A stretch of DNA of 64,000 nt from Phoronis australis (lineage: Eukaryota; Animalia; Phoronida), in assembly GCA_002633005.1 (NCBI GenBank), contig NMRA01000057.1, positions 1,080,005 through 1,144,004 of the forward strand, read 5' to 3'. The notes beneath the pieces are model-generated. The model was not told where the DNA came from and made no database searches. It saw only the letters and a program-made list of their open reading frames with translations. Each line of letters begins with the position of its first letter. Positions within the stretch are counted from its first letter, which is position 1. The translations under genes were made by a program, and so were the position numbers. Shown piece by piece: positions 34,681 to 64,000 of this stretch.

Positions 34681-34958
34681 CTGAAAGAAAAAATGGAGAA
34701 AAGTGACACCTTAGTTCACGTGCACAATTTCTAGCAACGAGCGCATTAAACTGAGACATTGTCATACATGTAGGGGTGTATAACAGCCATAAATGTCCAC
34801 AGGCACTGGTACCGCTTTAGTGCACATGTTGCGGAGTCAACATGAACATGCAATAAACAGTAGATCATTATTATACAATCTTCATACACGTGGATCATTG
34901 TTATACACTATCCATACATAAAACATTCGTTGATAGACTGACGTATGCACGTACTTAC

Positions 34959-43034: not shown

Positions 43035-43266
43035 GTTTGTGTAATATAGCTTAGTCAAATCAATGAGAAATCGAATGGCAAGTGACTCCTTTACATAAAC
43101 ATTTTTCTTCGACAAAGCGATTTCACTGTGCATATCCAGCGTTGAATTATTGTGCACCCGGCGAGTCCAGAGTTACCAAATTGCGCCATAAGCGCACAGG
43201 GTAACTTCCTAGGTCACCGTAAGAGGACACTATGTGACGGGCATTCATTGCGTTGCGTGGTCGACT

Positions 43267-43310
43267 TCACACCAGCCTACTAAAAGCAGTTACTCACAAT
43301 AGGATATATA
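43267..43310 (+). promoter_or_regulatory. Pol III type-3 promoter of U6 (PSE-like element + TATA)
   Basis: TATATA at 43305-43310 (-29 to -24 from G43334). TCACACCAGCCTACTAAAAGCAG at about -67 to -45 resembles a PSE. Confidence 0.65.
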
Positions 43311-43333
43311 CGAAGGTCAGATAATAAATGTTT

Positions 43334-43350
43334 GTACAGCTACGTGCTGT

Positions 43351-43390
<40 letters not shown>

Positions 43391-43442
43391 GGCCCCTGGC
43401 GCAAGGATGACACGCAAATTCGTGAAGCGTTCCAAATTTTTT
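43334..43442 (+). ncRNA. RNU6: U6 spliceosomal snRNA gene
   Basis: ACATATACTAAAATTGGAACGATACAGAGAAGATTAGCATGGCCCCT(G)GCGCAAGGATGACACGCAAATTCGTGAAGCGTTCC, with ACAGAGA box, AGC triad, 5' hairpin GTACAGC/GCTGTAC and a T6 terminator. Confidence 0.97.
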
Positions 43443-44361
43443 ACTGTTATTGCCATGATGTTATTAGTTTTCTGTTAATCCTACATTTTCAATGAGTTTG
43501 TGAGACTGTTACCAAGTTTGCATTCATTTTTGACAACACGCAGTCAATAGTGTAGCATTGGCAAAATTCATAGTGTAGAGGAAGAATCGTCGCGTGGCAG
43601 AATATTTCATATTTTTTTCTTTTACTTTCTGCCTTTAACGTTAGGAGAATTGCCACGACTTCTGTTTTGATATGCCGAGGAATAAAGTTACTCCAAACGA
43701 ATACTAAGACAAACATTCTTATCTGTATTTACTGACCTCGTGTAATACAGTGGTTTCGAATACTCTCGTCAATTGGTATAGGTTTTAGAGGACTTTTTCA
43801 AAAAATGATGTTTAAAGAGTATCATTCAGCAAATCTTCCACACTATTTTTCCCGTCTCGCAGACACATTTCTGGGCTCGCGCACAGAGCAACCCTGCCCC
43901 GGCACATACTCCCTGCTAGTTGACAAGAGCTATTTCCGAGATACGCTCGCGCGATATTCTCTTCTCTCGGGCGACTTTACATATTAAGGTTATTTCAAAC
44001 CTTATTTAGTGGCCTCTATTCTAACTCGTATATCAAAAAAACTAAGCTTTGTCAACTAGTAAAAGTACATATTTTCTGAAAGGGCAAAGACCAGGAAATA
44101 TAAATATACTTTTTGTACTTATTGGTCATTATTATTTTTACATGTAGATATAAAATTTCTAAGCACAAATCATCCCTCAAAAGTTTTATTTCCTCCAATA
44201 TTTAATTGTTCGTTTTAACCATAATTATTTAACGACTGCTATGAAGGTATCAGATATCATATACTTGCGATTTTGATTACAGTAGGCCATAGGCACATCT
44301 GTCCACCGTATTCGAAGCTGTGCCAATATAAAAAGTAAGCAAACCATTTCAGTAAAAGGAG
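43406..44361 (+). repeat. U6 3' half plus downstream flank, duplicated at 57883-58693
   Basis: Collinear high similarity. The second copy lacks approximately 43988-44145. Confidence 0.92.
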
Positions 44362-45354
44362 CGGGGGGTTTGGTCGCAGTGGACTGGCTAAAAAAAAGGT
44401 TGGCTAAATTCACGCTCATTTCGGCACACGCACATGGGTACTTTTCCCGATTACTTGCCTGTGAAACAGTTTCTAAATTACAGTTTGTAGCGCATTGATC
44501 ACCACTTTTCAGAATAACCTAAGGTGTTTAGTTGAGGGGCAAAGCACTCAGTAAAAAGATCCATTTAAACAATAAAAAAGGTCCTTGCTGAACTTAAGTT
44601 ATGTTATTACATGCCTAATATACACCTCATTTCTTAACAGAAAAACATATATGAAAAAAGTCTTTATGAATCTGCACTAGACAATGTTTTACACCAGTCG
44701 ATATATTCTAAACTATTAATGAAAGTTTTGAATAACTATTCATTGCAAGTGTTTGTGAACAGGTACCACCGTACTGTCAGCGAAAAAACCTTGAGTACCG
44801 TCAGCTCAACATGCTACGAAGTCAGTGCAGTCACCAAGTCCGCGCAAAAAACAACACGCTACGCAACTTAATTGCAGTGTCAATTCCACGGTCCCTTGAA
44901 TAAGACATTGTTTTTCTTTAGAATAACATGGCAAAAACAGATGTTTCCTTCTTTCAGAAACTACTTTTGTTCATGACAGCTCAGAATATGTCGCGGCAAT
45001 TTTCAATTTTGACACACGCATGATCGTTGTAGTTATCAATCCTGCCGACTGCAGGTGTTGCAGTTTTATAATGGCGGTCACTCGAGATCGGCTGCCGCAA
45101 ATGAACACCTCATAAAAACGGTGAATGCGTGAATAAAAAGAGCCTAATCGGTACAAGTAATACATTTTTGGAGGATTCAGAAAATATTAATATCAAGAAT
45201 GTACGTTAATGGAGTCAGATTGTAAACAATAAACCGGATCAGAGTATTTAGGCAAAAACTGTTGTTCTCTTTTTTCCATTTTCCTTGGACCCACGCCGGT
45301 GTCGTGTCCAATAATGCATCTTTTCCAATGATGAATACAGAGGTGGTTTGCGTG

Positions 45355-45500
45355 GTCTGCGCATGCGCCAGTTTTTCGGCTTCCGGTTTTTGCTCAATAG
45401 TGCATCCAAGCATAGATTATAGACAACAGATTCGCAACTCCGGCATATTCTTACGAGCTGAGTTGACCTCTAATGACCTATCTGCTGCAGTTTCCGGTCA
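45355..45500. promoter_or_regulatory. Housekeeping-type Pol II promoter candidate
   Basis: NRF1-like TGCGCATGCGC (45358-45368), ETS-like CTTCCGGT and TTTCCGGT, and a GTGAGT donor downstream near 45628. Confidence 0.4.
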
Positions 45501-45809
45501 GTTTTAATTTGACGAGAAATACCTGCATCTACTTTACTGTCCAAAACAGCGAAAAAAACATTAATTTATATTATTTTCGGTATTGAAACGCTTTTAAAAG
45601 TCTTTCAATAGTAGAAGTGTTGGTATTGTGAGTACTTTTGGCAATGCTACTGGTAATTAATTTCAAAATTCAAACTTCGGTTCCGACCCTTTATGTCGTC
45701 TGCTTGCCCAATAGCAGCATAGTTATCGGACAGTTTTTGATTTACGGTTCACATAGGCCGCCTACTGAGAAAACTACGAAAGCGTGTTGATAAATCAACA
45801 TTCTCAAGT

Positions 45810-45898
45810 GAGCAGTTCTTCTGGGAAGTGTTGAGTGGCCCTTAAAAGGGCCGTTGGTTGTAGGTATAGCGTGAAATGGTTCTTAAAAGAACCGTTGA
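45810..45898 (-). promoter_or_regulatory. Two tandem histone-mRNA-type 3' stem-loops plus HDE-like element
   Basis: Minus strand reads CAAC-GGTTCTTTTAAGAACC (45878-45893) and CCAAC-GGCCCTTTTAAGGGCC-ACTCA (45837-45852), followed about 14 nt later by CAGAAGAACTG. Confidence 0.85.
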
Positions 45899-45924
45899 AT
45901 AATTCAACATAAATCACACAGTAT

Positions 45925-46730
45925 NNNNNNNNNNNNNNNNNNNNNNNNNNNNNNNNNNNNNNNNNNNNNNNNNNNNNNNNNNNNNNNNNNNNNNNNNNNN
46001 NNNNNNNNNNNNNNNNNNNNNNNNNNNNNNNNNNNNNNNNNNNNNNNNNNNNNNNNNNNNNNNNNNNNNNNNNNNNNNNNNNNNNNNNNNNNNNNNNNNN
46101 NNNNNNNNNNNNNNNNNNNNNNNNNNNNNNNNNNNNNNNNNNNNNNNNNNNNNNNNNNNNNNNNNNNNNNNNNNNNNNNNNNNNNNNNNNNNNNNNNNNN
46201 NNNNNNNNNNNNNNNNNNNNNNNNNNNNNNNNNNNNNNNNNNNNNNNNNNNNNNNNNNNNNNNNNNNNNNNNNNNNNNNNNNNNNNNNNNNNNNNNNNNN
46301 NNNNNNNNNNNNNNNNNNNNNNNNNNNNNNNNNNNNNNNNNNNNNNNNNNNNNNNNNNNNNNNNNNNNNNNNNNNNNNNNNNNNNNNNNNNNNNNNNNNN
46401 NNNNNNNNNNNNNNNNNNNNNNNNNNNNNNNNNNNNNNNNNNNNNNNNNNNNNNNNNNNNNNNNNNNNNNNNNNNNNNNNNNNNNNNNNNNNNNNNNNNN
46501 NNNNNNNNNNNNNNNNNNNNNNNNNNNNNNNNNNNNNNNNNNNNNNNNNNNNNNNNNNNNNNNNNNNNNNNNNNNNNNNNNNNNNNNNNNNNNNNNNNNN
46601 NNNNNNNNNNNNNNNNNNNNNNNNNNNNNNNNNNNNNNNNNNNNNNNNNNNNNNNNNNNNNNNNNNNNNNNNNNNNNNNNNNNNNNNNNNNNNNNNNNNN
46701 NNNNNNNNNNNNNNNNNNNNNNNNNNNNNN
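45925..46730. other. Assembly gap (Ns)
   Basis: Run of N. Confidence 1.
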
Positions 46731-46908
46731 AATGGAATTCCTCATCATGACGGCGCAAGCGGAATTCTCTGTCGGCGTAGCTGTAATGATGAGTTTTGAT
46801 GATTCGTTTGTCGTGACTGGTCTATACCACTCATGGTGGAGTAACTAGGGTTCAGTGTAGTGCTCTGTATGTAGACAGAGGTCATGAGCCTTGCTGATTC
46901 TTTTTCAG

Positions 46909-49283
46909 TCAGCTGTAAGCAGTCAGGCATCTGAAAAGGTAGAAAATTGTGCCGGGGCGGTGGAGCAAAGCACTGATGAGTGGTGAGATATTTCAAACTA
47001 AGAGCAGACGTTAGAATTTACGAGTGTTAGATTGTTTGCATTCTGAGCTGTGGTATCAAGCATTTTTGCATTTTGTATGGCTTTGTCTTTGTTTGCTTTC
47101 TCTGTGAGCTTGGGCTCAGCATTTGAGTATGGTAAAAACCATTGTCTGATGTCAGCTCAACATTTGAGTGTGGTGAAATCATGTGCTACTATTGTTTTAG
47201 CTCTAGTCAAAACACGGAGTCCTGTTTACCGTCTGGTTGTGCTAAAAAGAGGAAGTTAAAGGAAGATGACATTTTGGGTGACAAGTCGACGAAAGCTCCG
47301 CGCAAATCAGAGCAGACAGGGAGCAGTGTTCAGGTTTGCAATTTTTTCTGTTAGCATTGACGTGTATCATTTATAAGTCGAGAAAAAGTTGCATTGGGGA
47401 AAACTGAAATTGGATGCTGAGCAACACAAGAACAGAGTTTTTAAATTAAAGTACTACATGGACTGTTTCATAATAAAGAAGCCTTTTATATGCGTTTATC
47501 TTGTGTGATAACTCGACATGTCTGTTGAGGTTAATGGCTGCATCAGCTATTATGAAAGTGTTCTGATGTTCTTAATGTTGTTACAAGTCCATATTCTGTC
47601 AAAAGAACGTACTTTTAATTTGGACCACTTGCCACTTCTTGGTAGAATTTTGTTGTCTTTTTTCAGCCAAGTGTTTTGAGATTAAGAAGTCTTCGAAAGG
47701 CAAAACCTGACCTGGAGGATGGCGAGATACTTATTAACAAAAAGTACGTAGAATATGTAAACTGAGACTAATTAGTTCCACGATTCAATGTTCTGATAGA
47801 TTTCCATTTGCAGAAGATGATTAGAACTTGATGTGTGCTTTAAAGGCACATTATCGAAAAGAAACGTGGTTCTCTGATATCAGCTTCAGTGTGGAATCAA
47901 ATGTGGAGCCCTCACAGTTGCGATCTAACGTTCTGTTGGCAGAGCTAAGTCCTGCCAGATAACTGGCCGAGTACTTTAAGCGTATGTAACTAGTAAAGTT
48001 ACCGACATTCATTTCAGAAAATGTCTGGCTAGAATTGATGACTTGTAATGGAATCGCAAAAATTCAACGGATTTAATCTATCCCCTCCAACAGTAATCTC
48101 AAAAATCCTTTTTTGGCTATAAAACAATATTTTCCCTTTAAAATGTAATGGCATATGTTAATTATTCATCTTGATTGAAATTTTAATACTTAATTACTTA
48201 TGTCTTTTTCAGGCGTCGCAAGTGCTGTGTGAGTATAAATTTGAGGCTTAAGACTGATAGAGTATTATATTATTATACGTCAATTTCACCAATTCATTTA
48301 ACGTACGGGTCGTACGTGCATTCAGTTTGTGTTCGGTCATCTTTCACTTCTTTTGCACAAAAACAGTTCTCAAAATTGGCGGTTTGTTTTCCCGATAACG
48401 ATTTTTCAAAGACTGATCACATTCCTACAAACAATGGGAAATTTACCAAATGTTGTTTTATAACATCTGCTAAAATTAGACTTAAACTAAATCATTATTT
48501 TGTATAAGAAAATAAATATCTCTTATTCGCCTTATTGTGGTCTAAATAGATGAGGGCTGTTCCAGCAAAATCGTGTGGGAGGGGGGGAAGGCAACTGAAA
48601 TAAAAATTTATGGGTGGTTGCGTTTGATTTAAATTCAAAATGGCTGGTGGTCGTACTTCAAAAAAATAAAAATTTACAGGTCGTTGTTTCATTGGGCCAT
48701 AAATGTTTGATGGTGGGTAATTTTAGTAAATTTTATAAACAATCTGCACAGAATCAAAAACTGAAACAGAAATGGAACTTGCAAAAAGCTCCGACTTTTT
48801 CACTCCCTCCGATCTCCTCATCCGCATGCCCATAACTCCATTTAACCACAGGTGCTCGAATTTCTCGATGGCTAATAACTGTATATAAGAAACGTATGTT
48901 TCTTAGTAATGAATGACGTTAGTGGTGACGGAGGAACACATAAACTCAAGCACCTGTGCAGTCAACCACAAGAACAAAAAAAAATTACGGGTGGTTGCAT
49001 TTCAAACTTATAAAAAATTACGGGTGGTAGGCTGAAGAAATAAAAGAAAAATATGGGTGGTGGGTGCGAAAAAAAGGTGCCTTCCCCCCCCTCCCATACA
49101 GATTTTACTGGAACAGCCCTTATCTAAAAATTATAGTTCAGCTTCAGTTTAAACAATTTCTGTACATAAGTAAAAAATAACGGCATTTGTCTTATATGTT
49201 AATGAATTAATATATTTACACATTGATTAATACTGTTTTGTTGTCTTTCCTTGCAGTCCTGGCATCACAGAAAGATAAGCTGA
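46909..49283 (+). CDS. Candidate small spliced gene, unknown basic nuclear-type protein (exons 46909-46982, 47201-47333, 47667-47743, 48213-48228, 49257-49283; 5' part missing)
   Basis: Five exons with polypyrimidine/AG acceptors and four GT donors, phases matching, give an open frame SAVSSQASEKVENCAGAVEQSTDEC-SSQNTESCLPSGCAKKRKLKEDDILGDKSTKAPRKSEQTGSSVQ-PSVLRLRSLRKAKPDLEDGEILINKK-RRKCC-SWHHRKIS*. Confidence 0.5.
48554..49119. mobile_element. PIF/Harbinger-like MITE
   Basis: TIR GGGCTGTTCCAGCAAAATC / GATTTTACTGGAACAGCCC (1 mismatch), flanked by TGA and TTA. Internal repeats AAATTACGGGTGGT. Confidence 0.8.
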
Positions 49284-49336
49284 GTTGCAGACTTTGTGAG
49301 CGACAACAAGAACAATGTGCATTGTCAGTCATGTCA

Positions 49337-50211
49337 GGCCTGAGTTATGCTAGTATTTTGGCTCTCGTAGTCGGCCAAGTTTAAAGACAATTGTTTTTAG
49401 TCTTCTAGGCTTTCATTAGACACTATAAATATGTTGTGTGCCAAATTTCATAGTTGTGCTCTTGATATTGTAGATTTTGGAAGCGATTTTGATTTGAGAA
49501 TGCCTTATGGGCGAGAACTTCATATTTGGCCTGAGTCATGCTAGCTTTTTGGCTCTCTTAGTCAGCCAAGTTTAAAGACAATTGTTGTTGTCTGGTAGAT
49601 TTTCATTAGACACTATAAATATGTTGTGTGCCAAATTTCATGATTGTCCTCTTGATATTGTGGATTTTGGAAGCGATTTTGCTTTGACTTTGCATAAAAA
49701 TGAGCAAGAATTTCATGTGTAGCCTGAGTTACACTAGCTTTTTGGCTCTCATACTCAGCCAATTTGAAAGACAATTGTTTTTGTCTTCTAGATTTTCATT
49801 AGACACTATAAATATGTTGTGTGCCAAATTTCATGATTGTGCTCGTGATATTGTAGATTTTGGAAACGATTTTGATTTGACTTTGCATAAGAATGAGCTA
49901 AGAATTTCATGTGTGGCCTGAGTTATGCTAGCGTTTTGGCTCTCATAGTCAGCCAAGTTTAAAGACAATTGTTGTTGTCTTCTAGATTTTCATTAGACAC
50001 TATAAATATGTTGTGTGCCAAATTTCGTAGTTGTGCTCTTGATTTTGTAGATTTCGGAAGCGATTTTGCTTTGACTTTGCATAAGAATGAGCAAGAATTT
50101 CATGTTTGGCCTGAGTTATGCTAGCTTTTTGGCTCTCATAGTCAGCCAAGTTTAAAGACAATTGTTGTCTTCTAAATTTTCATTAGACACTATAAATATG
50201 TTGTGTAGCAA
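49337..50211 (+). repeat. Tandem repeat, unit about 193 bp, about 4.5 copies
   Basis: GGCCTGAGTTATGCTAG-like unit starts at 49337, 49528, 49721, 49915 and 50108. Confidence 0.95.
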
Positions 50212-53200
50212 ACTCGGCTTCAACACTCCTATTTTGAAAACTCTGTTATTCCACCAGTACATGACAGTTTTCTGAATCACTTCATAGAGCTGCAATAGTG
50301 TTATCTCTACGATTCGATCATTTCGAGTAACCGGGCCTCGAATTCTGAGATAGGAGTCCAGGGACTGTCGCCATCTGGATGCCACAGACTTGCACCACGG
50401 AAAAGCACATTCATCTTTTCAAACAATGTCTCAAGAAGCGCTCTGGTATCAACCTGTGTTGCTGATTACATTCTGTCTCCAACCTTACGACACCTTGCAT
50501 CACAGTCTGTAGCCAGCAGGATGCGAAACTGTGGACTGCTTCAGGGTTACTGATAATTTTTGCCAGGAAGCAATAATGGGATTGCTGGATATTGCCTCAT
50601 TGACGGCATACCAGCCCTTAACCTTTTACAAGCTCAACAACAATTCTCTGAATTTCATTCCAACTAAACCCGGAATTCCACACGGATCAACTATATTCTG
50701 AAGAGATAATGCACACGCACCACTGGAGCAGGAAACACAAGGCCTGTAGTAGGCGATTGACTTAGGTGTCCTGGTGCAAGGAGTGGCTGTCTGCTGGCTC
50801 ACAGAGGGCGGCGACACCGGTATTGTTGACGGCAGCCCAAAGTCATGAACCACAGGAGCAGGAAAAACAAGCCCTGGCTTGGGCAGCAGCTTCTTTGCAG
50901 GTGGCGTTGAAAACTTGGCAGCAATTTCAGGTTTTGGTGGCAAATCCTGTTCCAATACACGCTTTTCTAAAGCCTTTTGTCTGTTATTCCACCAGTATAT
51001 TACCGTTTTTTGGTTCACCTCGTACAGTTGAATGTTTGTTTCATCCATAATTCTGTCATGTCGTGTGACGAAACCACAGATCCTGTGGTAGCAGTCCAAC
51101 ATCTGCCTCCATCTGAATGTCCCAGGTGTACCTGATGGAAAGAAACGTTCCAGCCATTCGAACAATGCCTCAACAAGAGGGCTGGCATCCAAGTGTGTTG
51201 TTGGACCACCACAGGAACCAATAGTGGCTTTTCTCAAGCTCACCACACCTGACGCCACCGTCTGGCTTCGTTTGGAGGCAAAGCGTCCTGTGTGCTTCTG
51301 GTTTTGCCTGAACCGACGAGGGTACATAACTCTTGACTCCTTCACGGACATGGGCAATTTCTGCCAGGCAGCAATGATGCGGGTGGCCATTGCTTCAGTG
51401 ATGGCTTGACAGTTTCTAGCTTTAAAAATCTCATCCGCAAGACCCTGAATTTCGGCCCAACCCATGATTCCACGTGGACCGACGGCCTTCTGAAAGAATA
51501 TTAGCGCACAGTTGAGACACTAGTTTAGTGCAAAACATGACAGTCAATACAAAACGGTAAAGATTATTACTTACATCTGCAATGACTGTGTCTGTGAAGA
51601 TAGTGGTATCTGTATCCTGTTCAATAAACCCCTCGTCTTCCTCACCCTCCACCTCCACCTGGTCAAGGTTGTCAGGCACCTAAATCCATGGAAAAACGTA
51701 AATACATAATTCTGTCCAAGTATTTGATAATGACGTAGTTTTTATACTAAATTTTCATTTATTTTGAGCTATATTACCTCTGGGTCAATGGTGGGCTGGA
51801 GCCAAACCTTTCCAGTCTGTGAGTTCAGGTACTCTATACCCAGCAGCTCTCCTGTGTATTGGGCAGGTTCCTGGCGTCCTGTGTGGCTTGTCCTGTACAA
51901 CACTTTGTGTAGCCTGTCAACTTCATGACAAAGGGCATTGTCAAAGGTCCTCATATGACCTTTTTCCACAGAAGCTGCCTCAGCCCTGAGGTCGTTCCAT
52001 CGACCGATACCCTCCAGCAGATATGCCTGGAAATTGGCGTCACTGGCTTTGGTACCTGTAATACAGTCACAAAGTATTTTCACATAATAGTAAGCACAAA
52101 ACTAGGATAGGGTAGCTACCGATATCTCCCTAGTGTGTCAATATTTACAGCAATGATATTTCACCAAAGGTATTCTGAGTTTACACAGTATTTATCACAA
52201 TGGTCTTCTCAAACCTGACTTACCAGGCACAAACCTGTTGATATGCAGGTGAAAACTCTCTAAGGAGGTTGAACCTCTAGCACACCTGTAAACAACCAGC
52301 TCTACACCTCCTATCGTCTTGGTGCCGATCTGTGTGTATAATTGCACTCTCTCTGGGTCTTGGATGCAGGGCAGATGGTGTTGCTGCTCTTTCAAGATTA
52401 CTTGTGTCAGCTCCTTGTCCACAAGGACCACACCCATGGTGTCACGTCCTCTGTCTCCACTGAATGTTTCCAGCAGCTCAGTGATGAGTTCCATGGTAGC
52501 CTCCACACCACGAGTCCTTCGCTGGCAATGAAGTTGCAGCTCCATTTTTGTGATACTTCGAGCCACTAAGGAGTCATTGACCTCCCAAATGCCTTCAGCG
52601 GTCAACTTGGCCGATTTTGCCTGTCGCAACCTCTCCAAGTCTTCAGGATCCCACTCATAGATGGCAGCAGAGACATAAACGTGGGGTAAAGGGAGTGAGT
52701 CTCGGAGCACACAGACCCGGACAGTCTCCTAATGCAGTGCCTTTTGTCAAGCCGCCAATCACCAAACAATTCATTTATACGCTGCGAGCAGCAATCCCGA
52801 TCCACGTATAAAACACTAGAGGCCGTCACATTCGCATCACTATATCGCTTCATGAGACTATCGACCATGTCGCGCGGACCTTCTCCTTCGGACTCCGTTA
52901 CCACAGAAACGAGTACTTGTCCAAACTCGTTTCCAACATTGGTTACCCACATGGCAGTGTCAGCAGCCCGGCCAGCAAGTTTCTTGGTCAACTGAAATAA
53001 ACGAGCCATTTTGGTACCTAACACAATACAAAAGCAAACCTTACTTAACACAACCTACAACCTTACACTACAATTCTTATTTTCTTTTTCTTTTTATTGA
53101 TGATAAGCAATGTAACACCTTCAAAGATTTGCCCATAGTTGTTCATAATCTTCAACAGCGCGGGGGAATCACAAACAGTAATGCCTCAAGCAATGGAAGT

Positions 53201-56200
53201 GATACCTTTTTCGTTGAATCCATTTTGAGCACCGACCCAAAAGTGGATGTTATCTTGGCCTTGACCTGGTCCAGTGACTGTACAACATCGAGGAGGTAGA
53301 GTTGCAGGAACCATGGGTACAGTGGTACTTTCACCATCTCTGGTAGGTTAGGCGGAGTTGGCAGTATAATCATGCCCCTGTTAGCCTGACGCTTGTAAGG
53401 TTCCACTGCCTGAAGGAACAACAGCATCCTCTCAAGGTGGCACTCACTGTGTTGTTCCAGAATTTTGTTGTGGAGCTGGGATGAGGAGTTCCTCTCTCTC
53501 ATTAGTTTCACCACCTTCAGGGCACATGACAACCTAGAATGTAATTCAAAATGAAACCAACATTTTTACTTGAGGGCTATTGAGCCAACTGAATGGCGAT
53601 TTATACACCATATTCAATAACACCTAAGTTTATAAGAAATCAAGTGCTTTGTCAACTAGGAATTTTGACATGGAGTCCGACTACCAGCAGCAGGCCTTAC
53701 TTGTAGGTTAACAGAGCTGGGAAGAGATGTCTGAAGCCAAGGCTCAATTGTTAGTATGTGTGTCGACCAAGCCGGGAACTTCTTGCGGCACCGCTTGCAT
53801 TCTAGGTACTCAGTGCCGATCAGATACCATTCACTGACATCCAGCACTCGTCTGAGTGTTCGGTACATGCCAGCTTGAGTGAGGTGAAGCTGTATAAGAT
53901 ATGGAAGTATACAACAGTGAAGAAATGAATTGGAAGATATGCAGTCAGACGCTATCATGCTAAGCTATCACTTTAAAAAATACCGTCTGCTAAAGTAGTT
54001 TACTACAGCACTTGCCAATGGAGACGAAATGTAAACGAAGCAATTCAAGACTATGGAGCAATGTTGACTGGGCCCATAAGTCTATCAATGTGCTGTGTCC
54101 TGGTAAGACTTCAACTCCACATCTTTATATTGGGATGTGAATGTGACGCAACCAGACCACACTGCTTCCACAATCCCTCTCAATACTTACATCTTCCTTG
54201 TTTTGCTTCTGTCGCGACCTGCACTCTTCATCGCAAAGAAACTTTAATCCCATGGAGCGCTGCAGAGTCCACAGAAAGAGCTTTCGCATGAGAAAGCTTT
54301 CTGCACTTTTGGGAGACTGTGAAGGTTGGGTTCAGGTGGGTGGTACCACATTCTGAGATCCTGTCTGTTCTCTGACTTCTCAGTGCGAGAACTAACTGTG
54401 TACAGCTCCTTACATAACCATTTCTGCTCCGGAAGTGTGAGAACCTCCTGCCAGGTTTTTGGAAGAGCATTCTGTAAAAGTGACAACACGAACATCAAAA
54501 ACTTTCAACTTCAAATTTGTCTCAAGTGAAGAGCTACAGCTGGCATGATTTCGACGAAGCTTAACAGAAAACACATCATCAATAAAAAAACAAAAACTTA
54601 CACTACTAGCATAAAATATATCTATAATAGAAATGCATTATGAATACAAAGAAGCAATGTTGTTTGTCACAATTACATCCGAGTGACTGCAACTCCTGTT
54701 GTTGAGACATTACCTCATCAATGGTGACTTGTGTTGGTGGCAGAGTAAATACTTGAGGCACGTCCACATTTGGAACTGAGGGTGGTAGACTAGGTATTCG
54801 GAACAAAGGGTCAACCAGCGGTGTATCCACTAGGACCTGGTACGGGTGTTTCTGCAAAAGGGGTACAAATGCGGTTGAGGAATACCATATGACATCTGTA
54901 TTGTGAACAGTTGTAAAATATTTTGTTGATTATTAAATAACAAGCATTTAATTAAGCTGGGTTTAAGAAACTGCTTTCAGTCTCAACGAGCACACGTAAA
55001 TGAGCAGTGCACCGGAGAGGAAAACAAGTGAACTCTTATGGAGATTAATTGGTTAATGTCAATAGTACAAAATTGTTCATACTCAAATAGGTATCAATGT
55101 ATCATACAAGGAAGGTCTTTGCTTTTATATTCATGATTGTTCTACTAGCAGAACGTTACAAATTAATCTCACGTTAGCTCTCGACTCACCACACAACAAG
55201 AGAAGTGAATACCAGAGGCTACACACTAACATAGTGTGAACCAAACTGAAAAATAATGGGCTGTAAATATGAACATTATGGTACTAGTAATTAGTTTATG
55301 GTTGCTAATCAAAACTGAAATCCACATTCCCCGTGCATCATGCTTAAAACACGAGACAAAAGTAATCAGGCAAAATATCGGCTAAATTTGTGAACACCAA
55401 AAATTATTATAGCAATTGATTTCTGGCTTAGCCATTTTTACTAACCCTCCAGTTGTCATGACCTGTGAATTCGTGTCACTTTGTTTAACTATTTTAGGCA
55501 TGTATTGTTAGACAAAGATTAACCAAGACATCAAACAAAATACCATTATTTGAAATCAGTTAGTAAGACACATAACCATGCAGTAAGAGGGTATGGACAC
55601 AATACACTGGCTGTACTTAATAAATAACTTGAGCTCATCATTTAAATCACTTGGTGACAACAGTAGCAAAATTCAATATCGCGCTTTGAGTAAGGCCATT
55701 GGAATTAGTATTTAGAAGTACCACCACTGTATAGTGTCCACACTGAGGACATGACATCTTCAGCAAGCAAATCTCATATACCTTTGGGAATCTGCTGCTC
55801 TATTAGCTGGGCAGCCTTGACCAAACAGACATCGTCAAGGTCCTCATCTATCTGTGGTTGGCTACTCGCTTCAGATGCCCTGGTTTTCTCCACCCTTTCT
55901 CTCTCATCTTTTAGATAGCGGTACCGGTTCGCTTGTGTCACCAATGGGAACATGTTGCAGTATCTGCAACAAAGCATTAATTGGTATCTTCTTCAAATGC
56001 TAGAACAATGTGTACATGAAGTAACAGCAATTCTTAAGTTGATCAGAAATAGTAAACATGAACTCAAATCCTATATTGTGTACATTGTATGTACCAAAAT
56101 TATAATAATTAACAAAAGTTCACCTGAGCAGGGCTTCCTTGTTATCAAACTGTGGATCTGGGCACCGTGGGATTTTCCCCTGGGACTTAGAGAGCTGGTG

Positions 56201-56760
56201 AGATGCCATCACCATTGTCGTCTACCCCATGTCGTTTTTCAGTAGCCACATGAAAGTTTTCCCCCTGTACATGCCGAACTGGAGTTCACTCATTGACAGA
56301 ACTGATTCTGCATCAGAAGTGTCTCCCCCGCAGTCTCTGACTCTCTTCTTTGCATCTTCTTCCACCTAGATTGAGCGGAATGGGGATACACATATGAGGC
56401 AACTGGAAATTATATATACCGTACATATACATATACGTATATATATATATATTGACAAACTCAGGTCCTCACAACCGATGTCATCAAGAACACAAATAAT
56501 ATCAGTAATGTTGTGTGTGGCCAGTGGATTTAAGTTACTCAGAAAGTTATAGTGAGATTGATGCCAATAAAGAATCATTACCCTTAGTATAAATTTTAAC
56601 CAGATATTAATATGCGTTTATTAAATTACCCACCTGTTCTTTCATAAGTTGCTGACCAAAGGCTTTGTTCAGTTTTTGCTTTTTGATGTTGGCAGCAACA
56701 AGCTTGGACCTGTCTGTCCTGACAAGCCGCAACTGTCTTTGAACAACACAAAATTGGGCT
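50212..56760 (-). pseudogene. Dada-type DDE transposase pseudogene, multi-exon (56634-~56760, 56124-56365, 55782-55963, 54191-54471, 53701-53889, 53206-53533, 52224-52991, 51778-52055, 51575-51679, ~50760-51489, 50212-50697)
   Basis: Motifs LQFGMYRGKTFMWLLKND, WYHPPEP, EYLECKRC, VLKMDSTKK (D), LYVDRDCC (D), RLDKRH (DxxH), RCARGSTSLESFHLH (E) and NFQAYLLEGIGRWN. Canonical splice sites with mostly matching phases. In-frame stop and frameshifts present. Confidence 0.85.
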
Positions 56761-56975
56761 TTCGTGCCAGCATTTTCTATAAGAACAATGAACTCCAGCT
56801 TCGGTCAATTATTCTTGAGTGCTTACATGTGCCCGTGCCAAGGGCATGAGGTTTGCCGAGTAGAAAAGGCCTTTAGTAATTTGTTTCCCGGCCAAAGAGT
56901 CACATGGTCATGCTTTGGCGATGGCTTTGTAATCACGAACGTTTAGCCCCTAAACCTTTTGATTGCACTCCAACA

Positions 56976-57235
56976 GCCGATTTCATAAAGGTGGTTTAAA
57001 GTTAAACCAGGTTTAAACTGGACTTAGACCAGGTTTAATGATAATCTGCATTTCATAAAGGTGGTTTAACTTTTAGACCAGTGGTCTTGTAAAACCTGGT
57101 TTAACTCCAGTTTAGACCTGGTCTAAGTCAGTTTTCATTTCACCAACGAGGTCTATATTCTTTAGACCTGTATTAAGATCTTAAACCATGTTTAACTTTA
57201 GACTTGGTCAGACCCAGGTTTAACTGTTGAATATG
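56976..57235 (+). mobile_element. Harbinger-like terminal relic with palindromic subrepeats
   Basis: GCCGATTTCATAAAGGTGGTTTAA, with ATTTCATAAAGGTGGTTTAA repeated, and many AAACCAGGTTTAA-type units. Confidence 0.45.
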
Positions 57236-57357
57236 TCAGACTTTCATGGTATAGGTACAACTGAACGATGTCGCGGTGTGCAATTACGACGCAGTTTTAG
57301 AGCGAAAATGGACTATTTTCATTATTTAGGTTTACTACGACACCAGATCAAACGTAA

Positions 57358-57514
57358 CAGGGGCGGATCCAGGATTTTTTAAAGGGGAGGGGACGGTCAA
57401 GGACTTTTTGAAAGGGGGACCAAGTCAACAATTTGAAAATTATAGATTTCATATCATTAAAATCAAGGAAAAAAGGGGGATCCGGACCCCTTGACCCCCC
57501 TGGATCCGCCTATG
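57358..57514. mobile_element. MITE with 5-bp TSD (hAT5-like)
   Basis: CAGGGGCGGATCCAGG / CCTGGATCCGCCTATG, flanked by CGTAA and CGTAG. Confidence 0.8.
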
Positions 57515-57690
57515 CGTAGACCAGTACGTGCTGGAGTGTGTCCTGCGGATTCCTCAGAATACGACTGGTCGAGCAGGGCGTCATCGTCGCAAGCCCTACG
57601 GATTTGACTTAAGACAGCATACTCTGATTCTTCTGACTGAGTTCCACCTACACTGTTCTCCGATTCAATGTTGCCGGGAAGTGGTCTNGT

Positions 57691-57859
57691 GACGGTTCCA
57701 AGATGGTTCTAAATTGGCTCGAAAATGTGTGATTGGCTGCTGACGGTTCCAAGATGGTTCTAAATTGGCTCGAAAATGTGTGATTGGCTGCTGACGGTTC
57801 CAAGATGGTTCTAAATTGGCTCGAAAATGTGTGATTGGCTGCTGATGGTTCTAAGATGG
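57691..57859 (+). repeat. 51-bp tandem repeat, 3 identical copies plus a partial copy
   Basis: Unit GACGGTTCCAAGATGGTTCTAAATTGGCTCGAAAATGTGTGATTGGCTGCT at 57691, 57742, 57793 and 57844 (partial). True copy number is uncertain because of the N at 57688. Confidence 0.95.
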
Positions 57860-57882
57860 CTTTAATTTCTATTAGGCACGCA

Positions 57883-57918
57883 GATGACACGCAAATTCGT
57901 GAAGCGTTCCAAATTTTT
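57883..57918 (+). pseudogene. RNU6: 3' half of a disrupted U6 snRNA gene
   Basis: GATGACACGCAAATTCGTGAAGCGTTCCAAATTTTT is identical to 43406-43441 and is followed by the same genomic flank. The 5' half is absent. Confidence 0.93.
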
Positions 57919-59326
57919 AACCGTTATTGCCATGATGTTATTAGTTTTCTGTTACTTCTACATTTTCAATAAGTTTGTGGGACTGTTACCAAGTTTGCAT
58001 TCATTTTTGACAACACGCATTTAATAGTGTAGCATTGGCCAAATTAATGGATTAGAGGAACAATCGTCGCGTGGCAAAATATTTCATCATTTTTTCTTTT
58101 ACTTCCGACCTTTGACGTTAGGAGAATTGCCGCGACTTCTGTTTTGATATGGCGAGGAATAAAGTTGCTACAAACGAATATACTATGACAAATATTGTTA
58201 TCTGTATTTACTGATCACGTGTAAATACACGTGTTTCGAATACTCTCGTCTTTTGGTATAGGTTTTAGAGGACTTTTTTAAAAAAATGATGTTTAAAGAC
58301 TAAGTATCATTCAGAAAATCTCCCAGACTATTGTTCGCGTCTCGCAGACACATTTCAAGGCTCGCACACAGACCGACCCTGCTCCGGCACATACTCCCTG
58401 CTAGTTAGTAAGAGCTATTTCCGAGATACGCTGGCGCGGTATTCTCTTCTCTCAGGCGACTTTACATGTTAACTAGATATAAAATTTCTGAGCACAAATC
58501 ACCTCTCAAAAGTTTTATTTCCTCCAATATTTGATTATTCGTTTTAACCATAATTATTTAACGACTCAGTGCTTCGAAGCCATCAAATATCATATGTTTG
58601 CAATGTTGATTACAGTAGGCCATAGTCACATGCGTCGACCGTATTCGAAGCTGCGCCTATATAAAAAGTAAGCGAACTATTTCAGTAAAAGGACACTTGG
58701 AATTGATTCTTTGCCGGGACATAGGCGCACTGAAATCCTATTTTGAATACTGACACACGGCCTTTTTGCTCTTGAAATAAACTACATAATCTTGCCAATG
58801 AATAAACATACTTAAATATACACAGTCGGCTTTTTGCAAAGTACAATGTGAGACTTAATTCTAACTCATAAGGTTTTTTAGTTGAATAATTTGGCATTTT
58901 CATTGGTTTATCTGGAAAGTGGACTGCATGGATTATGTCAATGATTCCCACTTTAAAATAAAATATCCCGAGAATCTCTGTATGTAATGCACCCTCTTTA
59001 GGTTTGGTCACACTGTGCTAGTTTTGTTCTTCCTAGTACACTAATACGACTAGAACCAATTTTGAAACAGTTATGAAATGGACTGTTAGCTGTCATTGTC
59101 ACTAGTTTAACAAAACTTCCCAAGTAATTCGTTGCCTAGCAGAACGTCTCATCCCAATAACTCAGGAAATGTGCTGTCAAAGTCCTCTTGTCCAGGACAA
59201 TCAGTGCGCCTAACCCAGGCAAGGCTTGCGTCAGTATAAATGGCATTCATCCACCATCACCTATAAAGGAAACTTACGCGCACTGTGTGTGTGTGAAAAA
59301 CAAATGAGTAGAGATAAATGTATCTT

Positions 59327-59800
59327 TGTGAAAAATTATTAAATTTGAGAAAGGCACATGGACCAGAATACACGCGTATACATGTACAGTACATACTCTT
59401 ATTGCTTTTATACTTATGCCGTGATCCCCTGAACTCGAGTAGTGCGTAAGTAGGCCTATCCATAAATTTTCCATTACTTTGTAATCAACAGTGTATTGTG
59501 AGGAAACCCAACTGTCATTTGATTTCACTAAATTCAAATAGTTTATTGAAAAATAAAACTTTAAAAGAGGACAATTCCAAGCCCTGTTTTTGTGAAAAAA
59601 GTATTAAATCTGAAAAAGGCACATGGACCAGAATACACGCGTATACATGCTCTTATACGTATGTCGTGATCCCCTGAACTCGAGTACTGCGTAAGTATCC
59701 ATATTTTTTCCAATACTTGGTAACCAACAGTGTATTGAGAGAGAAACCCAACTTTCATTTGATTTCACTAAATTCAAATAATTAATTGAAAAATGAAACC
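59327..59800 (+). repeat. Two-copy tandem duplication, period about 264 bp
   Basis: AAAGGCACATGGACCAGAATACACGCGTATACATG and GTGATCCCCTGAACTCGAGTA each occur twice. Confidence 0.9.
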
Positions 59801-59948
59801 TCAACAAGAAAATAGTCCAGCAGCTTGATGGACAAGTATTGGTCTGCTGGTGAGTAAAGAAATATGCCCACGAGACACGAAAAGAGGTCTGAGAGGAAGG
59901 AACATGCATCAGACATGCAGACAGAAGAATATCCTAGGAAAGAGAAAA

Positions 59949-61675
59949 AACAAGAGCAACGCGGAGCGTTGAAATGCGCCCACGAATGCATCACAAATGG
60001 TGTGCTTTTGGGGTTATTTATTTGTATCATAAAAAGGCCACTAGATGGCGCAAAAACGTACAAGCCATCAGAAACGGAAACATGCCATATTTCATAAAAA
60101 TTGTCAAAGAACTTTAGAGAAACAAAGGAAAACAGAACAAAATGAAACTGCCTCTTGTAGGCACAGCGTCCGTTCCATCTGCCTGAAAGTCGTCGTCTAT
60201 TGTTATCTTCATATAAATTCACTTACTAAATTTAATAAAGATCCTGCAGTGGGTTTTGGAGATACTATTATGGGCGCAAAACAAAACAAAACTACCTCTA
60301 GGAGGCGCCACAGTAGTCAGTCGCCATCAGCAAACGTCTTCTTCACACTGAAAACATATATGCCAATTTTCAAAACCATACCTAGAATTATTTGGTTGAT
60401 CGAGGGGTGGACGCCAAAAACAAGATTTGAAAACAGCAAAAAATGGCCACCACATGGCGCAAAATACCTCGATTCACTCAAACACAGGATGATAGCGTCA
60501 TCTCACCAATAGATGCCTATATTCAAAATTTTATGAAAATCTGTTGAGGACCTTTGAAGATACAGACTGGTAAACGTAAAAAACTAAAATTGCCACTAGG
60601 GGGCACACCACTAGTCAGATCCGTCCGAAAGTCGTGTCATCCATTGTCAACATGATATACATACACTTGCTAAATTAAGTAAAGATCCTGCAAACGGTTT
60701 AATAGATACAGCCATGAGCGCAAAAAAAACTGCCACTAGGAGGCGCCAAAGTAGTCGAACTCGTCGGAAAATAGAAAAATCGTCGTCAGCCGTCCACTTC
60801 ATAGCAAAATCATACATGCAAATTTTCACAATTATCCTGAAAGCGGTTTGGTTGATAGACGGGTGGACGCCAAAAAATAGACTCGAAAAAGTTAAAATGG
60901 CCCCTAGGTGGCGCAAACTAGGTCGAATCCATCTGAAAACGGAGAAATAGCGTCGTCTCATTAACAGATGCCTCTATGTCATATTCTGTGAAATTACGTT
61001 GAGGACCTTTGAACATACAGAGGTAAACGTAAAAAACTAAAATTGTCACTAGGTGGCACACCAGTAGTCAGATCCGTCTGAAAGTCGTCGTCCTCCCTTG
61101 TTAACATCATATAAATACACTTACTAAATCCTGCGAACGGTTTAGGGGATACAGCCATAGGCGCAAAAAAACAATACTGCCACTAGGGGGCGCCACAGTA
61201 GTCTAAGTCGTCCGAAAATAATCGTCAGCCGTCCACTTCATAGTAACAGCATACATGCCAATTTTCACAATCATCATTTGAGCGGTTTGGTTGATAGAGG
61301 GGTGTGGACGCAAAAAAACAGACTCGAAACTAGGTGGCGCAAACTACGTCAAATCCATCCGAAAATGGAGGAACAGCCTCATCTCACTAATAGGCGCCTA
61401 TATACCAAATTTTAGGATAATCCGTTCAGTACTTTTGAAGATACAGAGGTAAACGTAAAAAAACTAAAATTGAGGGGACACAGGTAGTCGGATCCGTCCG
61501 AAAGTTCGAGCATGCCGTCCCATCCACGGAAGGAACACATGTGCAAAGTTTCATGAACATACATGTACGTCAAGGCGTTTTGGAGATAGAGCAGCGGACA
61601 CCGGGCGTCGGACGGACGGACGGACGGAGATGACGGCATAATGCTTCCACATATAAATATGTGGGCTCATAAAAA
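59949..61675 (-). mobile_element. HINE/DINE-1-like (Helentron-associated) non-autonomous element with internal tandem repeats of about 430-455 bp
   Basis: Subterminal IR ATGCGCCCAC (59974) / GTGGGCTCAT (61661), terminal hairpins CAACGC-GGA-GCGTTG and CCACATAT-AA-ATATGTGG, a (GGAC)n microsatellite, A-tract ends, and about 3.3 internal repeat units. Confidence 0.75.
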
Positions 61676-62339
61676 TGTGCTGGTCAAGCCCCGAACACAC
61701 AAGGCAGTGTAGTCTAGGTGCCTTGCCACACTAACACTTATAATGTTATTGATACCTGGCCCGAGTCATTACACATAGTTACCATAGCAGATAACCAAGA
61801 ACCGGGGCTTGGAATTACCAATGACAAAAAGAGGAAAGTGTGATGTATCGTTCCACAAATAAATAGGTTTGTACAATAGAAATACTTTTGGGTTGTAAAA
61901 TTTAAGTGAAGTAAAAATTTTTTGCACGAATAAAGTCAAAATAACGGTACAAAAAGAGACGAAGGAACAGGAAACTGGAAACATATTGATAAGAATTAAT
62001 AAAAACCAAAAAGAGGAAATCCTTTTAAAAAGGACAATTCCAAGCCCTGAGAACAGATACAAACAGAAATAGCGACACTTAGCATGAAAAACTTACACTG
62101 AACATCAGATAATGGCCATACGAGAAGGAAGGTGACAATCACACCCACCGGGATACTCACTTTGCCTAGAGCAAAACCAACAAGGAATCACTTGTTCATT
62201 CCTTCTAACTAATTTCAGGACATTAATAACATTTACCACTGCGAAAGTCTATTATTCTACAAAAGACACAGAAGAGTTCCTTAATAACACAATAACGCAA
62301 TCTAACACCGCATACCACAGATTACTTTTTCGGCTTCAG

Positions 62340-64000
62340 CGGAGAAATCTTTTTTCTCTCCAGCAGCCACTCAGCTGGCTTTTTACCTCCAACAAAAGGT
62401 GTCCAACCCATTCACTCACGAATGACGGCTATGGCCAAACTCTTTCGTCCTCAGCTGGTGGCAGTTATTGTACGAGTTCTGATGTTTGTATTTTGTCAGG
62501 ATGATCGCGTGACTTTCTTTCTCTCATTTTTGCCTGTAATTGGTACCAGACTTTGGTATTCTGGTGCAAGCAGATAATTGTTTTGAGATCTGCTGGCTAA
62601 GTGAAAGTGGTAGCTACAGTGCCGTTGCTGGTACCTAAGTCATGCACCAGAGTAACAGGATACACAAGGCCTGGCTTTGGTAGTAGCTGCTTGGGACCCG
62701 GTGTTGATGACTTGGCTGTCATATGACGCTTTGGAAGCAAACTCTGCTCCAACACTCGAATTTTGAAAACTCTGTTATTCCACCAGAACATGACAGTTTT
62801 CCGATTCACTTTATAGAGCTGCAGATTTGCTATCTCTACGATTCGGTCATTTCGAGTAACCAGGCCTCAAATTCTGAGATAGGAGTCCAGAGACTGTCGC
62901 CATCTACATGTAGATGCCACAGACTTGCACCACGGGAAAGCACATTCATCTTTTCAAACAATGCCTCAAGAAGCGCTCTGGTATCAACCTGTGTTGCCGG
63001 ATCACCACAAGAACTGTTCTTTCCCTAAGCTTATAACACCTTGCATCACAGTCTGTAGTCAGAAACACGTGAAAGTGTGGACTGCTTCAGGGTTACTGAT
63101 AATTTTTGCCAGGAAACAATAATGGGATTGCTGGACATTGCCTCATTGACGGCATACTAGCCCTTAACCTTTACAAGCTCACCAAAAATTCTCTGAATTT
63201 CATTCCAACCTAGAATTCCACAAGGATCAACTATTTTCTGAAGGAATAATGCACACGCACCACTGGAGCAAGAACACAGGGCCTGTAGTAGGCGATTGAC
63301 TTACATGTAAGTGTCCTGGTGCAGAGAGTCGCTGTCTGCTGGCTCAAAGAGGGAGGGGACACCACAGTTGTTGATGGTAGCCCAAAGTCATGCACTGCAA
63401 GAACAGGAAAAACAAGACCTGGAAGCAGCTTCTTTGGGGCTGGTATTGACAAGTTGGCAGACATTTCAGAATTTGGTGGCAAACCCTGCTCCAGCAATCA
63501 CTTCTCCAAACCCTCCGCCAGTATATGACGTTTTTTGATTGATCCCATACAGCTGCATGTTGGTCAGGTCCATGATCTTTCCTGTTGTGTGACAAGACCT
63601 CGAATCCTGTGTTATCACTCCAGCATTTGTCTCCATCTGGATGCTCCGGTATACTAGATAGGAAGGCACGTTCCAACCTTTCGAACAATAATGCTTCAAT
63701 AAGAGGGTTGGCATCCACGTGCGTTGCTGGTGCAATACAAGACCTAATTGTAGCTTTCCTCTAGCTCACCATACGTTCTGTCGCTATCTGGCTTCGTTAG
63801 GATGCAAAGCGTTCTCTGTGGCTCTGGCTCAAAAGTCTTCTAAAAAAATAATGCACTGTTGAGACACTGCAGTTTCATGGAAAACACGTAGGTCAATAGA
63901 ACACATTCAAGACTATTATTTATATCTGCTTAGACTGTACCTGTGAAGATCTGTTCAATAAACCCCTTGCCTTTCCTGGCTATCCATTTCAACCTGGTCA
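62340..64000 (-). pseudogene. Second, more decayed Dada-type transposase copy (3' part; continues beyond window)
   Basis: 62750-63830 is collinear with about 50221-51300, and 63950-64000 with the 51575-51679 exon. It additionally retains the C-terminal motif CHQLRTKEFGHSR...FC...EWLLE at about 62350-62490. Confidence 0.85.

What the first reader, a model, noticed from the sequence alone, without database searches (positions are those of the whole stretch)
43334..64000. U6 snRNA gene cluster parasitised by Dada-type, U6-targeting DNA transposons
Seen: an intact U6 (43334-43442), and a second U6 locus with the same ~0.8-0.9 kb downstream flank but only the U6 3' half, starting just after a decayed GCGCAA loop (GGCACGCA|GATGAC, 57875-57883). 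To its left is an intron-rich DDE transposase gene, and a second copy lies about 4.4 kb to the right in the same orientation. Known: Dada transposons insert site-specifically into multicopy small RNA genes, and the U6 families do so at GCGCAA. Inference: this is a probably unannotated Dada-U6 family that has hit a tandem U6 array repeatedly, a natural sequence-specific DNA integration system with target and empty site side by side.
Basis: partly seen in the sequence, partly recalled or inferred. Interest (0 to 1): 0.82.

Follow-up and report, generated by a model that had tools for sequence, protein, structure and literature searches.

The report
Decayed Dada transposon beside split U6
Two broken copies of a known kind of jumping gene (Dada) lie near one whole and one half U6 small-RNA gene, and the first copy likely inserted long ago into U6 at the spot these elements usually use; it is a decayed new member of a described group, not a new system.

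Summary
The pieces are real; the reading is overstated. The window holds one full U6 gene (with one extra G exactly at the Dada target), one U6 3' half sharing a ~90% identical flank, and two minus-strand Dada transposase copies. The protein keeps D-D-E, DxxH and the CCCC finger and falls among Kojima's Dada-U6 and Dada-tA families, on its own invertebrate branch; the tree cannot choose between them. A past U6 insertion is likely (0.7): the U6 half starts at the Dada site, orientation matches, and a CCAAT-box tandem like Dada 5' ends abuts it. But no clean TSD, no correctly spaced subterminal repeat and no U6 5' half exist, and the link crosses a high-copy repeat ending at the scaffold N, which no listed contig bridges. 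Copy 1 is single-copy in DNA runs and frameshifted. The two copies share one internal duplication, so block duplication, not repeated targeting, likely made the pair. No U6 array is shown. Dada-U6 was described in 2013; this scan already reported intact examples on other DNA (e1-7597145, e1-7881135). New member of a known kind, low interest.

The parts
43266..43311 (+). Promoter-like elements of the full U6 gene: PSE-like box (43266-43286) and TATA-like box (43303-43311)
   Evidence: Read by eye from the sequence; the PSE label is recalled, not tested
43334..43441 (+). Full-length U6 snRNA gene, own 7-bp 5' stem, with one extra G at 43398/43399 directly before GCGCAA (43399-43404)
   Evidence: Rfam 104.7 bits, insertion visible in the alignment; 5' stem folds 7 of 7 pairs
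43442..44360 (+). Downstream flank of U6, shared with the second locus
   Evidence: 89-95% per 100-column block; 148-nt deletion in the second locus
49329..50206 (.). 193-bp tandem repeat (4.6 copies) at which copy 1 is cut off; C-terminal zinc finger, 3' UTR and 3' terminus are absent
   Evidence: TRF; alignment with copy 2 stops at 50196
50196..50760 (-). Degenerate second copy of the last exon (internal duplication), shared with copy 2 at 86-94%
   Evidence: 66-73% to the upstream exon; same breakpoint in both copies
50760..56773 (-). Dada transposase gene, copy 1: putative ATG at 56773 after an acceptor; at least nine coding pieces; CCCC finger (C-x3-C near 54230, C-x2-C near 53790), D1 in LKMDSTKK, D2 in YVDRD, DxxH = DKRH, E in SLESFH. 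Stop at 56224-56222; frameshifts near 54320, 53751 and 52670
   Evidence: DUF6729 in 3 of 14 ORF pieces, 2 above the cut-off; tblastn; translations
56974..57687 (.). Nest of high-copy interspersed repeats between the gene and the scaffold N; likely a heterozygous insertion at 56973/56974
   Evidence: Depth 10^3-10^5 against 8 (X1) and about 45-56 (X3) over the gene; loose ends before 56974 and behind 57687; one X1 contig leaves the window at 56973, one X3 contig ends there
57688..57688 (.). Single-N scaffold join of unknown true size
   Evidence: no listed piece bridges it, most pieces not shown
57690..57859 (-). 51-bp tandem (3.3 copies, 98%) with two CCAAT boxes per unit; likely the 5' subterminal promoter region of copy 1
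   Evidence: TRF; 11-mer CAGCCAATCAC three times here, and 7 of its 8 occurrences in the fish Dada dataset lie near record 5' starts
57860..57882 (.). Non-canonical element/U6 junction: no intact 6-bp TSD; nearest AAGAT (57853-57857) is 25 nt from the U6 half, 20 expected
57883..57918 (+). U6 3' half (U6 positions 73-108), beginning one base past the base that follows GCGCAA
   Evidence: 36 of 36 identical to the full gene; Rfam 23.9 bits, below the gathering score
57919..58693 (+). Downstream flank of the second U6 locus
62335..64000 (-). Dada transposase copy 2, 3' part only: last exon, its duplicate and a remnant of the C-terminal CCHC finger (62392-62470); many stops and frameshifts; runs off the window

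Best explanation
This is a broken Dada DNA transposon that likely inserted long ago into a U6 snRNA gene at the usual Dada site, in the opposite orientation, and whose surroundings were likely duplicated and rearranged afterwards. Shown: Dada-type transposase with its catalytic motifs, opposite orientation to U6, a U6 half that starts at the Dada site about 1.1 kb (as assembled) from the start codon. From the two Kojima papers: Dada-U6 transposases insert at GCGCAA, duplicate it, lack terminal inverted repeats and are thought to read the target sequence directly. Inferred: the 51-bp CCAAT tandem is the element's 5' end and promoter; the 3' end, with the U6 5' half and promoter, was deleted where the 193-bp tandem now stands; the junction was imprecise or eroded; copy 2 comes from duplication and recombination of a block that already carried the rearranged element, not from a second targeted jump. 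The element is predicted to be dead.
For: Motifs and D1-D2 spacing of 68, as in Dada-U6_DR. Relatives P0013 and P0021 match Dada-U6-2_GMo and Dada-tA1/2_AcLa in Kojima's Dataset S1 (read by eye); the window protein sits in a 25-row set (95*) that holds both. The U6 copy is cut within two bases of the end of the published TSD and the gene points the published way. The gene's 5' half is single-copy in the DNA runs, so its nearness to a U6 half is unlikely to be an accident of abundance. CCAAT tandems mark the 5' ends of fish Dada records. No tRNA, U1 or 5S piece, the other Dada targets, is in the window or region scanned. Published Dada-U6 copies include imprecise junctions and non-U6 flanks at one end. 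The copies share one internal duplication breakpoint, and its downstream part is as diverged (about 90%) as the U6 flanks.
Against: No intact TSD; exact TCTTCTCTG/CAGAGAAGA absent at any candidate end; AAGAT 5 nt off and also readable as a YY1-like promoter site (label recalled). The U6 half is unmutated while the junction needs several indels, which sits poorly with slow erosion. No U6 5' half and no 3' terminal motif found. Linkage crosses a high-copy repeat and an N; an X1 contig continues about 587 (or 680) letters from 56973 with sequence unlike the window, and I could not see what it holds. The 11-mer was found in tA, tL, tR and U1 records, in no U6 record; four other motifs from the unit had no hit; CCAAT boxes are common in promoters. 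Grouping with Dada-tA is not rejected (p-AU 0.463), core identity is slightly higher to tA (52-55%) than to U6 (49-52%), and C-terminal best fish hits are tA. Upstream parts of the two copies are only 76-83% alike, so a single clean duplication does not explain them.
Confidence: 0.7

Rival explanations
1. One reading: a Dada-U6 family struck several units of a tandem U6 array independently, and copy 2 has its own U6 3' half beyond 64000.
For: Two copies in the same orientation, each to the right of a U6 flank; upstream coding parts only 76-83% alike; Dada-U6 families are reported inside U6 arrays.
Against: No U6 5' half or promoter left of either copy; spacers 44361-50200 and 58694-62730 share nothing; shared internal duplication breakpoint; single-copy depth at 85% likeness over the gene's 5' half.
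Confidence: 0.12
3. Copy 1 belongs to a branch that cuts U6 a few bases away from the canonical site or carries a different end, so the junction is its normal form rather than decay.
For: Own long branch; U6 half unmutated while the junction departs by 5 nt; Dada-tA and Dada-tY are reported to replace target letters on insertion.
Against: One junction only; small junction deletions occur in known copies.
Confidence: 0.05

Closest known systems
Dada-U6 families (Dada-U6_DR, _DPu, _CT, _CGi, U6-2_GMo, U6A_CCa; Kojima & Jurka 2013 PMC3706591; Kojima 2022 PMC8869645)
   Same: DDE + DxxH + CCCC finger, D1-D2 spacing 68, introns, no terminal inverted repeats seen, opposite orientation to U6, U6 broken at the GCGCAA loop; 49-52% identity to the fish U6 clade over the core
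   Different: Outside the fish U6 clade on its own branch; different intron pattern (by eye: no intron at YTG|E or in the last exon, an extra one inside DUF6729); no TSD or correctly spaced subterminal repeat; pseudogenised; 3' end lost
Dada-tA (Dada-tA1/tA2_AcLa = P0021)
   Same: 52-55% identity over the core; same acceptor-then-start context; CCAAT tandem at the 5' end; proposed in the 2022 paper to derive from Dada-U6
   Different: Targets tRNA-Ala; no tRNA gene or fragment was found in the window
Unannotated DUF6729 proteins of Apostichopus japonicus (P0005 XP_071827724.1, P0265 PIK51977.1) and unnamed ENA proteins P0011, P0004, P0029
   Same: Same branch (98-99*), 52-58% identity; best C-terminal hit (45%)
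   Different: Their target sites could not be looked up here
ISCth4 (IS256/Mutator-type) and Hermes (hAT) transposases
   Same: Best structural matches of the predicted fold of relative P0011 (E 3.3e-5 and 4.9e-3), as the 2013 paper's DxxH grouping predicts
   Different: About 10% identity, low TM-scores (0.20 by query); these use terminal inverted repeats and are not RNA-gene specific (own knowledge)

Membership tests
Dada superfamily | Dada-type DDE transposase with DxxH after the second D | tested here: met
   MDSTKK, YVDRD, DKRH, SLESFH; spacing 68 and 179 (68 and 176 in Dada-U6_DR); 493 relatives at E<=0.001 of 1680 candidates, two matched to named Dada records
Dada superfamily | N-terminal CCCC zinc finger | tested here: met
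   LCDEECR and ECKRC inside the DUF6729 pieces
Dada superfamily | C-terminal CCHC zinc finger | tested here: inconclusive
   Lost from copy 1; remnant in copy 2 with one cysteine missing and a stop
Dada superfamily | Intron-containing gene, no terminal inverted repeats | tested here: met
   GT-AG edges read at coding pieces; no inverted pair at the candidate ends among 22 pairs of 30 nt or more; the 3' terminus is missing, so the second half of this test is weak
Dada superfamily | 6-7 bp target site duplication | tested here: inconclusive
   Left end absent; right junction carries no intact GCGCAA
Dada-U6 | Lies between U6 1-70 and U6 65-end | tested here: inconclusive
   3' half present from U6 position 73 (numbering of this gene, which has one extra base); 5' half absent from the window; link crosses an unbridged N
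Dada-U6 | Transposase opposite to U6 (same orientation in Capitella) | tested here: met
   U6 on +, gene on -, gene 5' end towards the U6 3' half
Dada-U6 | [quoted passage not shown] | tested here: not met
   Exact motif only in U6 itself and at 9349-9357; AAGAT 25 nt instead of 20 from the half. Several published 5' ends also lack it
Dada-U6 | Transposase groups with Dada-U6 lineage | tested here: inconclusive
   Inside a 95* set with U6 and tA clades; p-AU 0.569 with U6, 0.463 with tA; invertebrate Dada-U6 references could not be labelled
Dada-U6 | Several near-identical copies, all at U6 | tested here: not met
   Single-copy depth over 55000-56973 at 85% likeness in two runs of one sample; copy 2 is 80% alike; no genome held
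Dada-tA | Inserted in tRNA-Ala | tested here: not met
   No tRNA in the window, no tRNA fragment at E<=5 in 43000-64000
Active Dada element | Unbroken reading frame and expression | tested here: not met
   One stop and at least three frameshifts in copy 1; mean RNA depth at most 1.5 and no splice joint listed over 55000-56939 in two runs read to 18-19% (5' exons only)

The most novel reading that the evidence does not exclude
The window records the full life cycle of an undescribed invertebrate Dada branch that sits at the U6/tRNA-Ala split: an insertion with its own shifted junction in one U6 gene and, 14.5 kb away, an excision footprint (the lone extra G at the target) in the neighbouring U6 gene. 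Neither of the two Dada papers reports an excision footprint in the parts I read, so this would be a first trace of how Dada leaves its target and of a U6 made immune to re-insertion.
Probability: 0.1. Interest if true: 0.5.

Novelty: new member of a known kind. Interest (0 to 1): 0.2.

Why it matters
Dada elements are among the few DNA transposons that insert at a fixed site in multicopy RNA genes, and their mechanism has not been worked out in the papers found, so intact families are of interest for targeted gene delivery. This copy is broken, single-copy and lacks clean ends, so it adds little beyond one more invertebrate branch near the U6/tA split. The extra G at the target of the neighbouring U6 would matter if reads show it is real and it proves to be an excision scar.

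Tried and rejected
No whole genome is held, so copies and U6 genes could not be counted and 64000+ could not be read. The read lay did not cover the U6 half, its flank, copy 2 or the full U6 gene, so the junction letters and the extra G are unchecked against reads. The look-up of sequencing runs listed no RNA holder (no evidence either way). Metagenome scan: 105 pattern matches, 1 confirmed locus (L001, 1.6 kb, no ends). PDB sequence search with the 50-row alignment: 0 hits at E<=1. Searches for a 3' terminus motif (AGG-N10-ATCTT and relaxed forms) found nothing right of 43000 on the + strand. Trying to label tree clade A with one peptide failed (hits were other families) and worked with a second. 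Clades D and E stayed unlabelled except by host species. The 2013 protein alignment (Dataset S1.fa) cannot be read here; it holds the invertebrate Dada-U6 proteins that would best place this element. Rfam miRNA-type hits at 56390-57130 are far below gathering scores and were rejected as repeat hairpins. ISL folding of the variant U6 was uninformative. Rejected: another transposase superfamily; a domesticated dDada-like gene (catalytic residues kept, frame broken). Literature: 'Dada'+'DNA transposon'+'echinoderm' 0 papers, 'DUF6729' 0, 'Dada-U6' 3, 'Dada'+'transposase'+'AlphaFold' 6 held, the 4 listed unrelated.
Full report
Observation. Rfam finds a full U6 at 43334-43441 (104.7 bits). Its alignment shows one inserted G just before GCGCAA, so the gene is full-length but not canonical. 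A self-comparison of the window finds one other U6 piece: positions 73-108, 36 of 36 identical, at 57883-57918, followed by a flank about 90% identical to that of the full gene up to 58693. No U6 5' half and no copy of the U6 upstream region occur elsewhere. The window has no tRNA gene. The 'cluster' is therefore one and a half genes 14.5 kb apart; no genome is held to count more.

The transposase. Three of 14 ORF pieces tested hit Pfam DUF6729, two above the cut-off. One core piece found 493 relatives among 1680 candidates; the 120 listed are 45-58% identical and come from fishes, molluscs, echinoderms, a shrimp and unnamed assemblies; a profile-free search of cluster representatives gave 839 at E<=0.001. 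Mapping these back gives an intron-rich gene on the minus strand from a likely ATG at 56773 to about 50760. It keeps D-D-E with a D1-D2 spacing of 68, DxxH (DKRH) and the CCCC finger, matching what Kojima and Jurka give for Dada-U6_DR (D567, D635, E811; PMC3706591, parts 1-3 of 4 of the text and Fig. S2 read). The model of the closest long relative, P0011 (pLDDT 79; not the window's own protein), matches ISCth4 and Hermes best, weakly, in line with that paper's grouping. Copy 1 has a stop at 56224-56222 and frameshifts near 54320, 53751 and 52670, and ends at a 193-bp tandem before the C-terminal finger. Copy 2 (62335-64000) shows only the 3' part, with many stops.

Which Dada. I labelled tree clades by reading Dataset S1 of Kojima 2022 (PMC8869645; parts 1-3 of 5 of the text; supplement parts 1, 18, 22, 41, 108 of 109 and six searches). 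P0021 is Dada-tA1/2_AcLa and P0013 is Dada-U6-2_GMo, both by eye. In a 100-row tree (99 of the 120 hits, those aligning over more than 300 residues) the window protein lies in a five-row branch (99*) with a sea cucumber protein and three unnamed ones. In a 48-row tree of chosen representatives plus divergent hits, this branch (98*) lies in a 25-row set (95*) with the U6 clade, the tA clade and an amphioxus protein. Neither branch+U6 (p-AU 0.569) nor branch+tA (0.463) is rejected. The N-terminal exon hits U6-clade proteins best, the last exon hits the sea cucumber protein and then tA proteins. These are quick trees and the window row is a long branch. The element is a Dada of the U6/tA neighbourhood; the protein alone does not name its target.

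The junction. Published Dada-U6 copies sit between U6 1-70 and 65-104, opposite to U6 except in Capitella, with a GCGCAA or GCGAAA duplication and a subterminal repeat. Orientation and break position fit here. The marks do not: there is no intact TSD, leftward U6 similarity is at chance level (134 of 500 random stretches score as well), the exact subterminal 9-mer is absent, and the nearest AAGAT is 5 nt too far. Published copies do include small junction deletions and non-U6 flanks at one end, and several 5' ends in the 2022 dataset lack the motif. Next to the half lies a 51-bp tandem with two CCAAT boxes per unit. Its 11-mer CAGCCAATCAC occurs 8 times in the 1.09-million-character supplement, 7 of them near the 5' start of tA, tL or tR records and one at the 3' end of a U1 record; four other motifs from the unit had no hit, and a sixth had 15 scattered hits, one near a 5' end. 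In the window it occurs 4 times, 3 in this tandem, against 0.06 expected. This makes the tandem a likely Dada 5' end, but CCAAT boxes are general promoter motifs.

Linkage. Contigs of two DNA runs of one sample, possibly the source of the assembly, and raw reads of two RNA runs were laid on 55000-57880. The gene is at flat single-copy depth up to 56973. From 56974 to 57687 depth rises hundreds- to thousands-fold, with loose ends on both sides: a nest of common repeats, whose other copies run on past 57687, so the N at 57688 hides at least the repeat's end. One X1 contig follows the window to 56973 and then continues about 587 (or 680, by the coordinate convention) letters unlike it; one X3 contig stops exactly there. 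That is what a heterozygous insertion would give, and it would put the start codon roughly 1 kb from the terminus, as in Dada-U6A_CCa, but a mis-join would look similar. No listed piece bridges the N; 4214 pieces were not shown and a filter leaves records out, so this is no disproof. RNA depth over the 5' exons was at most 1.5, with no splice joint listed.

History of the pair. Both copies carry the same degenerate duplicate of the last exon, joined at the same place (about 50710-50770 and 63260-63314). The duplicate is 86-94% alike between copies, like the U6 flanks; the exon upstream of it is 76-83% alike. A shared rearrangement points to common descent of the two loci by block duplication with later exchange, rather than two jumps of an active element; this is inference, and the uneven identity shows the history was not a single event. 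The spacers between flank and element share nothing.

Verdict. A real Dada remnant, likely a past U6 insertion (0.7), dead, low-copy, with an unresolved assembly join. The kind has been described since 2013 in four animal phyla, and this scan has intact examples on other DNA. No paper in the library pairs Dada with echinoderms or names DUF6729; Repbase was not available, so 'unannotated' is untested. The one oddity worth a check is the extra G at the target site of the neighbouring U6, which may be an excision scar, a variant or an assembly error.

Noticed in passing
window 43398-43399: One extra G in the full U6 gene exactly at the Dada-U6 insertion point, enlarging the ISL loop; excision scar, variant or assembly error.
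   Followed up: partly
window 56974-57687: High-copy repeat nest (palindromic MITE-like part 56974-57223, GC hairpin element about 57354-57514) that appears to be a heterozygous insertion at 56973/56974; abundant in RNA reads from other copies.
   Followed up: partly
window 33620-34816 (-): Uninterrupted 398-aa reading frame for a Major Facilitator Superfamily transporter (MFS_1, E 2.6e-8); the only long open frame left of U6.
   Followed up: partly
window 45811-45898 (-): Two histone 3' stem-loop-like hairpins (36.0 and 22.8 bits) just downstream of the 806-N gap; a histone gene might lie in the gap.
   Followed up: no
window 4963-5817: Single Ns at 4963 and 5517 flank a 300-nt stretch repeated at 99%, typical of an overlap left at a scaffold join; bears on how far single-N joins can be trusted.
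   Followed up: no
window 60030-61640: Array of about 440-nt units (each of about 140-nt sub-units, 70-87% alike) ending in GGAC repeats; likely another element inserted downstream of copy 2.
   Followed up: no
window 59325-59809 and 62022-62049: 260-nt tandem duplication (81%); a 28-nt piece of it recurs at 62022, suggesting that the 3' UTR of copy 2 may extend far to the left.
   Followed up: partly
window 48547-49126: 580-nt element with 41-52-nt inverted ends and internal short repeats, MITE-like, just left of the 193-bp tandem.
   Followed up: no
window 62905-62912 and 63300-63308: Two separate 6-nt insertions in copy 2 relative to copy 1, each creating the same ACATGT palindrome; may be footprints of another element.
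   Followed up: no
PMC8869645 Dataset S1: 5' ends of tA, tL, tR and several U6 records carry short tandem CCAAT arrays; not mentioned in the parts of the two papers that I read, and a possible marker for Dada 5' termini.
   Followed up: partly
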